10,257 nucleotides of DNA from a virus (lineage: Duplodnaviria > Heunggongvirae > Uroviricota > Caudoviricetes), in IMG/VR virus record IMGVR_UViG_3300002854_000123, positions 1 through 10,257 of that record, one strand, 5' to 3'. The notes below the pieces were generated by a model. It worked only from the letters and a program-made list of their open reading frames with translations, searched no databases and was not told the DNA's origin. Below, piece after piece: positions 8,189 to 8,369 of this stretch. Position 1 is the first letter of the stretch, and every line of letters begins with the position of its first letter. The translations under genes were made by a program, and so were the position numbers.

Positions 8189-8200
8189 CGTGTAAATGTC

Positions 8201-8221
8201 GGGGGTTATTCCCCCATTTTT
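8201..8221 (+). terminator. Rho-independent terminator of the small two-gene operon
   Basis: ggggg-ttatt-ccccc followed by attttt, 13 nt after the TAG stop. Confidence 0.55.
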
Positions 8222-8251
8222 CCCCAATGATTCCCCGTACAAATTTCAAAC

Positions 8252-8281
8252 AAAAAAAACCAGCCATAAGAGGCTGGTTTT
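8252..8281 (-). terminator. Rho-independent terminator downstream of tRNA-Pro (bidirectional appearance)
   Basis: On the minus strand ccagcc-tcttat-ggctgg is followed by U8 (top-strand A-run 8252-8259). On the plus strand the same stem is followed by tttt. Confidence 0.6.
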
Positions 8282-8292
8282 CAATGTGTTTT

Positions 8293-8369
8293 TGGTCGGC
8301 ACGAGAGGATTTGAACCTCCGACCCCCGACACCCCATGACGGTGCGCTACCAGGCTGCGCTACGTGCCG
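8293..8369 (-). tRNA. proL: tRNA-Pro (anticodon GGG), 77 nt including 3' CCA
   Basis: Reverse complement reads CGGCACG-TA-GCGC-AGCCTGGTA-GCGC-A-CCGTC-ATGGGGT-GTCGG-...-GGAGG-TTCAAAT-CCTCT-CGTGCCG-ACCA: cloverleaf with 7-bp acceptor stem, anticodon loop AU-GGG-GU with G37, T-loop TTCAAAT. Adjacent to yejM as at the E. coli proL locus. Confidence 0.9.

What the first reader, a model, noticed from the sequence alone, without database searches (positions are those of the whole stretch)
8189..8369. Prophage-chromosome junction at the 3' end of proL; attachment core not resolvable from this window
Host synteny (yejL-yejM-proL) ends at the tRNA, and phage-like and moron genes begin within about 100 bp of its 3' end. 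That is consistent with integration into the tRNA-Pro 3' end by a tyrosine integrase located at the far end of the prophage. The tRNA is complete, and two separate terminators lie between it and the last phage gene. The exact att core cannot be determined without the other prophage end.
Basis: inference. Interest (0 to 1): 0.35.

Follow-up and report, generated by a model that had tools for sequence, protein, structure and literature searches.

The report
Prophage right end inside tRNA-Pro gene
This is the ordinary right-hand junction (attR) of a roughly 47-kb lambda-like prophage that inserted into the proL tRNA-Pro(GGG) gene of an Enterobacter-like bacterium and rebuilt the tRNA's 3' part from its own copy; comparison with free phages, empty sites and other lysogens now places the attachment core at 8290-8338/8340.

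Summary
The att core can be resolved once outside sequences are used.

- **Observation.** tRNA-Pro(GGG) lies at 8293-8369 (-), is complete, and is identical to E. coli proL. The last phage ORF ends at 8188.
- **Empty sites.** Nine of the ten places shown that encode an identical YejM read yejM-proL-DUF2534-ecotin with no phage genes.
- **attP.** Free phages Eeyore and Flotzy carry the same terminal genes, then the 8189-8289 stretch, then the tRNA segment, then a lambda-type integrase. Their match to the window stops exactly at 8338.
- **attL.** Lysogens in E. coli and Enterobacter carry the repeated tRNA segment next to the integrase at the far end.
- **Core.** The shared block is 8290-8338 (49 bp). 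It reaches 8340 for the window's own integrase type. Phage DNA therefore ends inside the tRNA, near the anticodon loop.
- **P arm.** 8189-8289 is the phage P arm. The tRNA-proximal hairpin (8255-8282) is a strong terminator. The other "terminator" (8201-8215) is weak and overlaps three 11-bp-phased TTCCCC repeats, conserved in 54 P arms, which are probably integrase arm-binding sites.
- **Gap.** The window's own attL could not be fetched.

This is ordinary biology.

The parts
10221..10257 (-). 3' end of yejL (host), cut by the window end
   Evidence: Gene called at L024 16157..16384 (PF07208). L024 5937..16193 equals the window at 100%.
8441..10201 (-). yejM/lapC (host), 586 aa
   Evidence: ORF list. 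Annotated yejM in E. coli hits. The exact protein is on record in 1270 blocks of the collection.
8341..8369 (-). Host-derived 5' part of proL (B' side of attR): acceptor stem 5' strand, D arm, and most of the anticodon stem 5' strand
   Evidence: Present in attB and attR. Absent from attP and attL (A3, A4).
8293..8369 (-). Complete tRNA-Pro(GGG) gene proL, a host/phage hybrid
   Evidence: ARAGORN. Identical to K-12 proL.
8290..8340 (.). att identity block (common core). 8290..8338 is shared by every attP, attB, attL and attR examined. Identity continues to 8340 for the window's own integrase type. It covers tRNA nucleotides 30/32-77 plus 3 T, and strand exchange must occur inside it.
   Evidence: The phage match to the window ends exactly at 8338. 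Alignments A3 and A4. Flank listings.
8255..8282 (.). Bidirectional hairpin with T-runs: the proL intrinsic terminator, carried on the phage P arm and identical to the native terminator of same-species empty sites
   Evidence: Scan. -19.8 kcal/mol, z = -6. Present in Eeyore and Flotzy attP. Identical in empty sites. In E. coli lysogens it sits beside the complete proL, while the native E. coli hairpin lies at attL.
8206..8236 (+). Three direct TTCCCC-ended repeats (8209-8214, 8220-8225, 8231-8236) in 11-bp phase: proposed arm-type binding sites for the integrase N-terminal domain
   Evidence: Exact phasing. At least 90% column conservation across 54 distinct P arms whose flanks vary. The same motif occurs once in P' arms about 120-130 bp from the core.
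8201..8215 (+). It overlaps the first arm repeat.
   Evidence: Scan. z = -1.5. The G-run half is missing in many related P arms that keep the CCCC repeats.
8189..8289 (.). Phage P arm of attR. 8189..8251 is phage-only sequence. 8252..8289 is identical in phage attP and in the attB of this host species.
   Evidence: A2, A3.
7868..8188 (+). Last phage ORF (106 aa, no Pfam family; labelled 'UmuD-like' in phage records)
7629..7868 (+). 79-aa phage ORF of unknown function
   Evidence: Called gene at L024 13565..13804. A homologous gene is annotated in CX15 and Flotzy.
7265..7528 (-). DinI-family moron
   Evidence: PF06183, E = 8e-23.

Best explanation
The span 8189-8369 is attR, the right junction of a roughly 47-kb lambda-like prophage integrated into proL in an Enterobacter-like host. 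The source is JGI metagenome 3300002855, contig pct1_10000241, and the provirus is IMGVR_UViG_3300002855_000245.

The phage attP is laid out in this order: last phage ORF; three phased arm-type repeats; a copy of the proL terminator; the 3' 46-48 nt of proL; a P' arm with an IHF-like site and one more arm-type repeat; then, in the window's lineage, a 352-aa cargo gene; then int.

A lambda-type tyrosine integrase, which has an N-terminal arm-binding domain, exchanges strands between attP and proL somewhere within the shared 49-51 bp block. The exchange probably occurs at the anticodon loop, where the block begins.

After integration the tRNA is a hybrid. Its 5' part (8341-8369) is host DNA. Its 3' part, its terminator, and everything to the left come from the phage. 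The displaced host 3' segment and host terminator lie about 47 kb away, next to int (attL).

Shown here: attP, attB, attL and attR sequences in relatives; the empty site in the same species; and the integrase at the far end of this provirus. Inferred: the exact crossover position, binding of Int to the TTCCCC repeats, binding of IHF, and the sequence of this contig's own attL.
For: **Source and far end.**
- The window equals L024 5937..16193 at 100%.
- The provirus UViG of the same contig carries a 392-aa integrase at its far end.
- That integrase hits PF09003. It aligns over its whole length to lambda Int structures at E = 7e-13, with the H-x-x-R, H and Y catalytic positions conserved.

**attP.**
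- Phages Eeyore (PP925821) and Flotzy (PP925827) match window 7266/7280..8338 at about 96%.
- In both, the order is DinI, hypothetical, 'UmuD-like' ORF, then the att region, then int.

**attB.**
- Nine of the ten places shown with identical YejM are empty.
- They are identical to the window from yejM to 8252 and unrelated beyond that point.

**attL.**
- E. coli CX15, F467 and 100181 show yejO, the K-12-type terminator, the repeated tRNA 3' segment, the P' arm, then int.
- Enterobacter L254 and L256 have an integrase 6 aa different from the window's and the same cargo gene. They show DUF2534, terminator, repeat, P' arm, cargo, then int.
- L251 is 98.15% identical to the window's int-cargo module and shows the same P'-core junction.

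**Terminator swap.** In E. coli lysogens the hairpin next to the complete proL is the phage type (CCAGCC/GGCTGG). The native type (CCAACC/GGTTGG) sits at attL.

**Arm sites.**

**Arm-binding domain.** 54 of the first 60 integrase residues are identical between the two integrase types.

**Literature.** proL is already listed as a prophage site (PMC8767318; PMC4924310). The general scheme for tRNA targets is stated in PMC1635311.
Against: - The window contig's own attL was not retrieved. The UViG ends at the stop of the cargo gene, the one metagenome scan used a P' sequence of the other integrase type, and the exact integrase and cargo proteins are not among the proteins the look-up accepts.
- In this host species the phage P arm and the native site are identical from 8252 to 8289. 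Within the window alone, sequence cannot tell whether that stretch is phage or host DNA.
- The window's P arm is about 96% identical to that of Eeyore-type phages, yet its integrase is only 78% identical to theirs and its inferred P' arm differs. This particular P arm/integrase pairing is seen only in this provirus.
- PF00589 scores below Pfam's gathering threshold for these integrases.
- The set of 54 P arms was selected for having at least two CCCC motifs, which inflates their apparent conservation somewhat.
Confidence: 0.93

Rival explanations
1. The phage is inserted in the intergenic DNA just beyond the proL terminator, with the junction at 8251/8252. The tRNA gene itself is untouched host DNA.
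For: Same-species empty sites are identical to the window through the tRNA and its terminator, as far as 8252, and diverge only there.
Against: Free-phage attP contains the terminator and 46 nt of the tRNA, and stops matching exactly at 8338. In E. coli lysogens the native terminator is moved to attL together with a copy of the tRNA 3' segment. Enterobacter attL sites L254 and L256 repeat 8290..8340 and have a slightly different terminator copy.
Confidence: 0.03
2. The junction is a fossil. The element is a mosaic or defective prophage whose P arm, acquired from an Eeyore-type phage, no longer matches its integrase, so attR cannot function in excision.
For: The P arm is about 96% identical to Eeyore-type phages, while the integrase is only 78% identical to theirs and the inferred P' arm differs. 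No free attP with this exact combination was found.
Against: The arm-binding N-terminal 60 residues are 54/60 identical between the two integrase types. The TTCCCC motif is present in both kinds of P' arm and in all P arms examined. The integrase ORF is intact at 392 aa, and the provirus is full length at about 47 kb with tail genes.
Confidence: 0.04
3. The genes next to proL are conserved chromosomal genes or a non-phage island, and no site-specific integration happened here.
For: None beyond the absence of an integrase inside the window.
Against: Nine of the ten places shown with identical YejM lack these genes. The upstream genes are lambda-like tail genes. The same module occurs in isolated phages.
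Confidence: 0.01

Closest known systems
Bacteriophage lambda Int/attP system (heterobivalent tyrosine integrase with arm-type and core-type sites, plus IHF)
   Same: The integrase aligns end to end with lambda Int structures (5J0N, 1Z1G; E = 7e-13) and has the PF09003 arm-binding domain. There are repeated short motifs on both arms of attP and an ATCAAnnnnTTR match in the P' arm. In the prophage, int lies at one end and the tail-fibre end lies at the other, as in lambda.
   Different: The target is a tRNA gene rather than the gal-bio intergenic site. The identity block is 49-51 bp rather than 15 bp, because the phage must rebuild the tRNA. The arm motif (TTCCCC-ended, three in the P arm and one seen in P') differs from lambda's. 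Binding was not tested.
Escherichia phages Eeyore (PP925821) and Flotzy (PP925827)
   Same: About 96% nucleotide identity to window 7266/7280..8338. They have the same DinI and small-ORF module, the same P arm with three repeats and the terminator, and the same tRNA fragment.
   Different: Their integrase is only 78% identical to that of the window's provirus. Their P' arm differs, and they lack the 352-aa gene between int and the att site. Their tail-fibre regions also differ.
tRNA-gene integration with 3'-end restoration (Williams 2002 scheme as summarised in PMC1635311; examples recalled from memory include P22/thrW and P4/leuX)
   Same: attP carries the 3' part of the target. The integrated tRNA is a host-5'/phage-3' fusion, and the displaced host 3' fragment lies at the other end (for the scheme; for this case). 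The block begins at the anticodon stem-loop, one of the recognised sublocations.
   Different: Here the rebuilt tRNA is at the int-distal end of the prophage and the fragment is next to int. In the S. flexneri 1c element at the same tRNA, by contrast, int lies 210 bp from the tRNA (PMC4924310).
Previously reported prophages at proL in E. coli and Shigella
   Same: Same chromosomal target between yejM and yejO: listed as a prophage site in O121:H19 STEC (PMC8767318) and as the site of the gtrIC element in S. flexneri 1c (PMC4924310).
   Different: Different host genus (Enterobacter-like, where the downstream neighbours are DUF2534 and ecotin, not yejO). The Shigella element has a different integrase and a different orientation.

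Membership tests
Prophage attR junction in a tRNA gene | Complete tRNA gene at the boundary between host synteny and phage genes | tested here: met
Prophage attR junction in a tRNA gene | Empty (unoccupied) site in closely related genomes | tested here: met
   Nine of the ten places shown with identical YejM have yejM-proL-DUF2534-ecotin. Alignment A2.
Prophage attR junction in a tRNA gene | Free phage genome carrying the 3' tRNA fragment (attP) beside an integrase gene | tested here: met
   Eeyore and Flotzy.
Prophage attR junction in a tRNA gene | Direct repeat of the tRNA 3' segment at the other prophage end, in related lysogens | tested here: met
   CX15, F467 and 100181. Enterobacter L254 and L256 and contig L251.
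Prophage attR junction in a tRNA gene | Direct repeat at the other end of this very prophage | tested here: inconclusive
   The provirus record stops at the cargo-gene stop, about 200 bp short of the expected attL. Scans and look-ups did not return the contig.
Lambda-type (arm-binding) tyrosine integrase | N-terminal arm DNA-binding domain | tested here: met
   PF09003 at 28.8 bits against a cut-off of 22 for the window provirus integrase. Eeyore and F467 integrases also hit it.
Lambda-type (arm-binding) tyrosine integrase | Tyrosine-recombinase catalytic domain with conserved R, H-x-x-R, H and Y | tested here: met
   Full-length alignment to lambda Int at E = 7e-13. H-x-x-R, H and Y (H+9) are aligned, and the first R is present one residue off. 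Caveat: PF00589 scores 18.8 bits, below its 27.1 cut-off.
Lambda-type (arm-binding) tyrosine integrase | Repeated arm-type sites on both arms of attP | tested here: met
   Sequence level only. There are three TTCCCC repeats in 11-bp phase in the P arm, conserved in 54 P arms, and one in P' at about 120-130 bp from the core. Protein binding was not tested.
Lambda-type (arm-binding) tyrosine integrase | Position of strand exchange (7-bp overlap flanked by core-type sites) | not testable with these tools
   It is only bounded to 8290..8338 by the identity block.
Intrinsic (Rho-independent) terminator | Stable GC-rich hairpin followed by a U-run: site 8255..8282 | tested here: met
   11-bp stem, -19.8 kcal/mol, z = -6, followed by eight U. 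Conserved at 90% or more across P arms.
Intrinsic (Rho-independent) terminator | Stable GC-rich hairpin followed by a U-run: site 8201..8215 | tested here: inconclusive
   5-bp stem, z = -1.5, and 17 of 200 shuffles fold as well. The stem's G-run is absent in many related P arms.

The most novel reading that the evidence does not exclude
The proL-targeting lambda-like integrases may form a large subfamily across Enterobacteriaceae whose att architecture has not been formally described. That architecture is three 11-bp-phased TTCCCC arm repeats plus a phage-borne copy of the proL terminator on the P arm, with the tRNA rebuilt at the int-distal end. When such a phage lysogenises a different genus such as E. 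coli, it swaps the native proL terminator for an Enterobacter-type one, which could change expression of this tRNA.
Probability: 0.25. Interest if true: 0.2.

Novelty: new member of a known kind. Interest (0 to 1): 0.12.

Why it matters
The practical value is in annotation.

- **Boundary.** The result fixes the prophage boundary to within 50 bp, inside the tRNA. Boundary-calling tools and a sequence-only reader both placed it outside the tRNA.
- **Origin of the gap.** The roughly 100 bp between the last phage gene and the tRNA is recombination-site DNA carried by the phage. It is not host spacer.
- **Search signature.** The analysis gives a usable signature for this att family: the core plus three phased TTCCCC repeats plus the terminator.

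No open biological question depends on this finding.

Tried and rejected
**Attempts to read this contig's own attL all failed.**
- The genome-contig scan with the Eeyore-type core/P' junction found only an attL remnant in E. wuhouensis plus unrelated hits.
- The single metagenome-contig scan used the same junction. It returned 11 good attL/attP examples but not the source contig, because this provirus has a different P' arm.
- Viral-contig scans with a conserved P' motif and with the tRNA core did not list the UViG.
- The integrase scan did find the UViG (L204), but the record ends at the cargo gene's stop.
- Homology searches with the cargo protein and the integrase returned only near-identical proteins, not identical ones. 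These gave the close proxies L251 and L253-L257.

**Other dead ends.**
- E. coli F467 (H14) was first taken as an empty site and turned out to hold another prophage. K-12 was used as the E. coli empty site instead.
- Williams 2002 could not be read. Its scheme is cited through PMC1635311 and otherwise from memory.

**Considered and rejected.**
- A junction at 8251/8252.
- Conserved core synteny.
- The serine invertase at 5712..6278 as the integrating enzyme. It is a Hin/Gin-type invertase with its own candidate sites around the tail-fibre cassettes.

Full report
**1. What is in the window**

ARAGORN finds a single tRNA, tRNA-Pro(GGG), at 8293..8369 on the - strand. It is complete, encodes its CCA end, and is identical to E. 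coli K-12 proL (alignment A1).

To its right lies yejM at 8441..10201 (-), followed by the start of yejL at 10221.

To its left are the following features:
- a 106-aa ORF ending at 8188;
- a 79-aa ORF;
- a DinI-family gene at 7265..7528;
- a Hin/Gin-type invertase at 5712..6278;
- tail-fibre and tail-tip genes.

The 104-bp gap holds two hairpin-plus-T-run sites.

**2. Where the window comes from**

The DUF2971 protein encoded at 4065..4847 is on record on one contig only: JGI metagenome 3300002855, pct1_10000241, 103,888 bp. The window matches that contig at 100%.

The same region is catalogued as provirus IMGVR_UViG_3300002855_000245, 47,076 bp.

The host is not E. coli, because yejM is only about 78% identical at the nucleotide level. 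The flank downstream of proL in same-species genomes is 86% identical to Enterobacter wuhouensis. The nearest integrase relatives are named Enterobacter species by their sources. An Enterobacter-like host is therefore inferred.

**3. The genes next to proL are not core synteny**

The look-up of the window's exact YejM showed ten places. Nine of them have yejM-proL-DUF2534-ecotin-mqo with no phage genes. The tenth has a different prophage at the same tRNA.

Aligned to the window, the empty sites are identical from yejM through the tRNA and its terminator, down to 8252. Beyond that point they are unrelated (A2).

**4. attP exists in free phages**

Isolated phages Eeyore and Flotzy match window 7266/7280..8338 at about 96%. 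The match ends exactly at 8338.

In both phages the order is:
1. DinI;
2. small ORFs;
3. the homologue of 7868..8188;
4. the same 100-bp stretch as 8189..8289;
5. the 3' 46 nt of proL;
6. about 140 bp of different sequence;
7. a 395-aa integrase.

**5. attL exists in lysogens**

E. coli CX15 carries a related lambdoid prophage at proL in the same orientation. At its far end, next to yejO, lie the K-12-type terminator, then a 50-bp copy of window 8289..8338, then the integrase.

The hairpin next to CX15's complete proL is the phage type (CCAGCC/GGCTGG), not the native E. coli type (CCAACC/GGTTGG). This shows directly that everything 3' of the exchange point, terminator included, is delivered by the phage.

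F467 and 100181 show the same layout with diverged phages. Eleven metagenome contigs add further attL and attP examples in E. coli-like and Enterobacter-like contexts.

**6. The window's own integrase type**

The far end of the window's provirus (L204) encodes an intact 392-aa integrase. It is 78% identical to Eeyore's overall, and 54 of its first 60 residues are identical.

The integrase hits the lambda arm-binding domain PF09003. It aligns end to end with lambda Int structures at E = 7e-13, with H-x-x-R, H and Y conserved.

Here a 352-aa ORF of unknown function lies between int and the att site, and the provirus record stops at that ORF's stop codon. The contig's own attL could therefore not be read.

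The closest proxies agree with one another:
- L251 is 98.15% identical over int plus cargo.
- Enterobacter genomes L254 and L256 carry an integrase with 6 amino-acid differences from the window's.

All show cargo, a roughly 165-bp P' arm, the repeated tRNA segment, a terminator, then DUF2534 and ecotin. That is exactly the neighbourhood found at the empty site. For this integrase type, identity with the tRNA runs to GTCATGGGG, which corresponds to window 8340.

**7. Anatomy of 8189..8369**

- **8341..8369:** host-derived 5' part of the tRNA.
- **8290..8338/8340:** the common core. This is tRNA nucleotides 30/32 to 77 plus three T. It begins at the last base pairs of the anticodon stem's 5' strand and contains the anticodon loop, the T arm and the acceptor 3' strand.
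- **8189..8289:** the phage P arm.

Strand exchange must lie inside the core. I infer the anticodon loop because the block begins there and that is a recognised sublocation (PMC1635311; otherwise from memory of Williams 2002). This is not shown.

Within the P arm, 8255..8282 is a strong bidirectional terminator hairpin (-19.8 kcal/mol, z = -6). It is conserved at 90% or more in related P arms, and in this host it is identical to the native proL terminator.

The other site, 8201..8215, has a 5-bp stem with z = -1.5. It overlaps the first of three TTCCCC motifs at 8209, 8220 and 8231, which are in exact 11-bp phase. The window holds only 7 such hexamers in all.

Across 54 distinct P arms from diverse proviruses, these three blocks are conserved at 90% or more while the sequence between and around them varies. 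The G-run needed for the hairpin is often absent.

The same motif occurs once in P' arms about 120-130 bp from the core, just beyond an ATCAAnnnnTTR (IHF-consensus) match at about 100-110 bp. With an arm-binding integrase, the simplest reading is that these are arm-type Int sites. The caveat is that the 54 arms were selected for having at least two such motifs.

**8. Comparison with what is known**

This is the standard tRNA-target scheme. The phage carries the 3' part of the gene, the integrated gene is a host/phage fusion, and the displaced fragment lies at the other end. The enzyme and site layout are lambda-like.

proL is already listed as a prophage site in E. coli O121:H19. It is also the site of the gtrIC element in Shigella flexneri 1c, where the integrase sits beside the tRNA, unlike here.

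The present case is a new member of a known kind. The only mildly new points are descriptive: the arm-repeat consensus, the phage-borne terminator, and the int-distal position of the rebuilt tRNA.

**9. Verdict**

The att core is resolved to 8290..8338/8340. One of the two 'terminators' is reinterpreted as probable arm-type sites. Interest is low.

Noticed in passing
window 3008-3030, 5634-5656, 5712-6278: A Hin/Gin-type serine invertase (PF00239 + PF02796) lies next to a probable invertible tail-fibre segment. Two sites in inverted orientation share an AAACCGAC core. One sits at the stop of tail-fibre ORF 1710..3011 and the other just upstream of the reversed ORF 4970..5638. They bracket two convergent S74-chaperone tail-fibre tip ORFs, 3164..3850 (+) and 4970..5638 (-). 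No match to a hix/gix-like consensus pattern.
   Followed up: partly
window 3851-3876, 4065-4847, 4936-4961: A low-GC (30-37%) DUF2971 gene sits inside the invertible segment between the two tail-fibre cassettes. It is flanked by a 26-nt inverted repeat (85% complementary). The exact protein is on record only on the source contig. It is possibly an inserted moron or a defence gene.
   Followed up: partly
window 6400-7260 (ORF 6548-6925, - strand): A low-GC stretch holds a 125-aa ORF with no family. Window 6400-7529 is about 90% identical to part of the record named Aeromonas phage AsXd-1.
   Followed up: no
window 7868-8188: The last phage ORF is labelled 'UmuD-like protein' in the Eeyore and Flotzy records but has no Pfam hit. 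E. coli F467 carries real umuD/umuC genes and an SOS-response peptidase at the equivalent position of its proL prophage.
   Followed up: partly
window 8196-8205 versus 8320-8329: TGTCGGGGGT in the P arm is an inverted copy of the tRNA segment that forms the anticodon stem 3' strand and the variable loop. A G(T/A)CGG element is semi-conserved just upstream of the first arm repeat in other P arms. It could be an extra integrase or accessory-protein site, or chance.
   Followed up: no
L204 4301-5359 (far end of the window's provirus): A 352-aa ORF with no Pfam family lies between int and attL. Full-length homologues at 50-97% identity occur in Enterobacteriaceae, Vibrio, Pseudomonas, Aeromonas and Shewanella. 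Other relatives carry a different insert of about 1.4 kb at the same position.
   Followed up: partly
L002 (E. coli EC2641), L010, L061-L085: The DinI, small-ORF and P-arm module at proL is attached to quite different phage bodies. Examples are baseplate J/gp46-type genes in EC2641 and a different head module in L010. Several unrelated right flanks abut the same tRNA core, which suggests other integrase families and tandem elements at proL.
   Followed up: no
L019 5150-5400 (Enterobacter wuhouensis): An attL-like remnant (terminator, tRNA 3' segment and P' arm) has no integrase gene following it. It is probably a scar of a decayed prophage.
   Followed up: no
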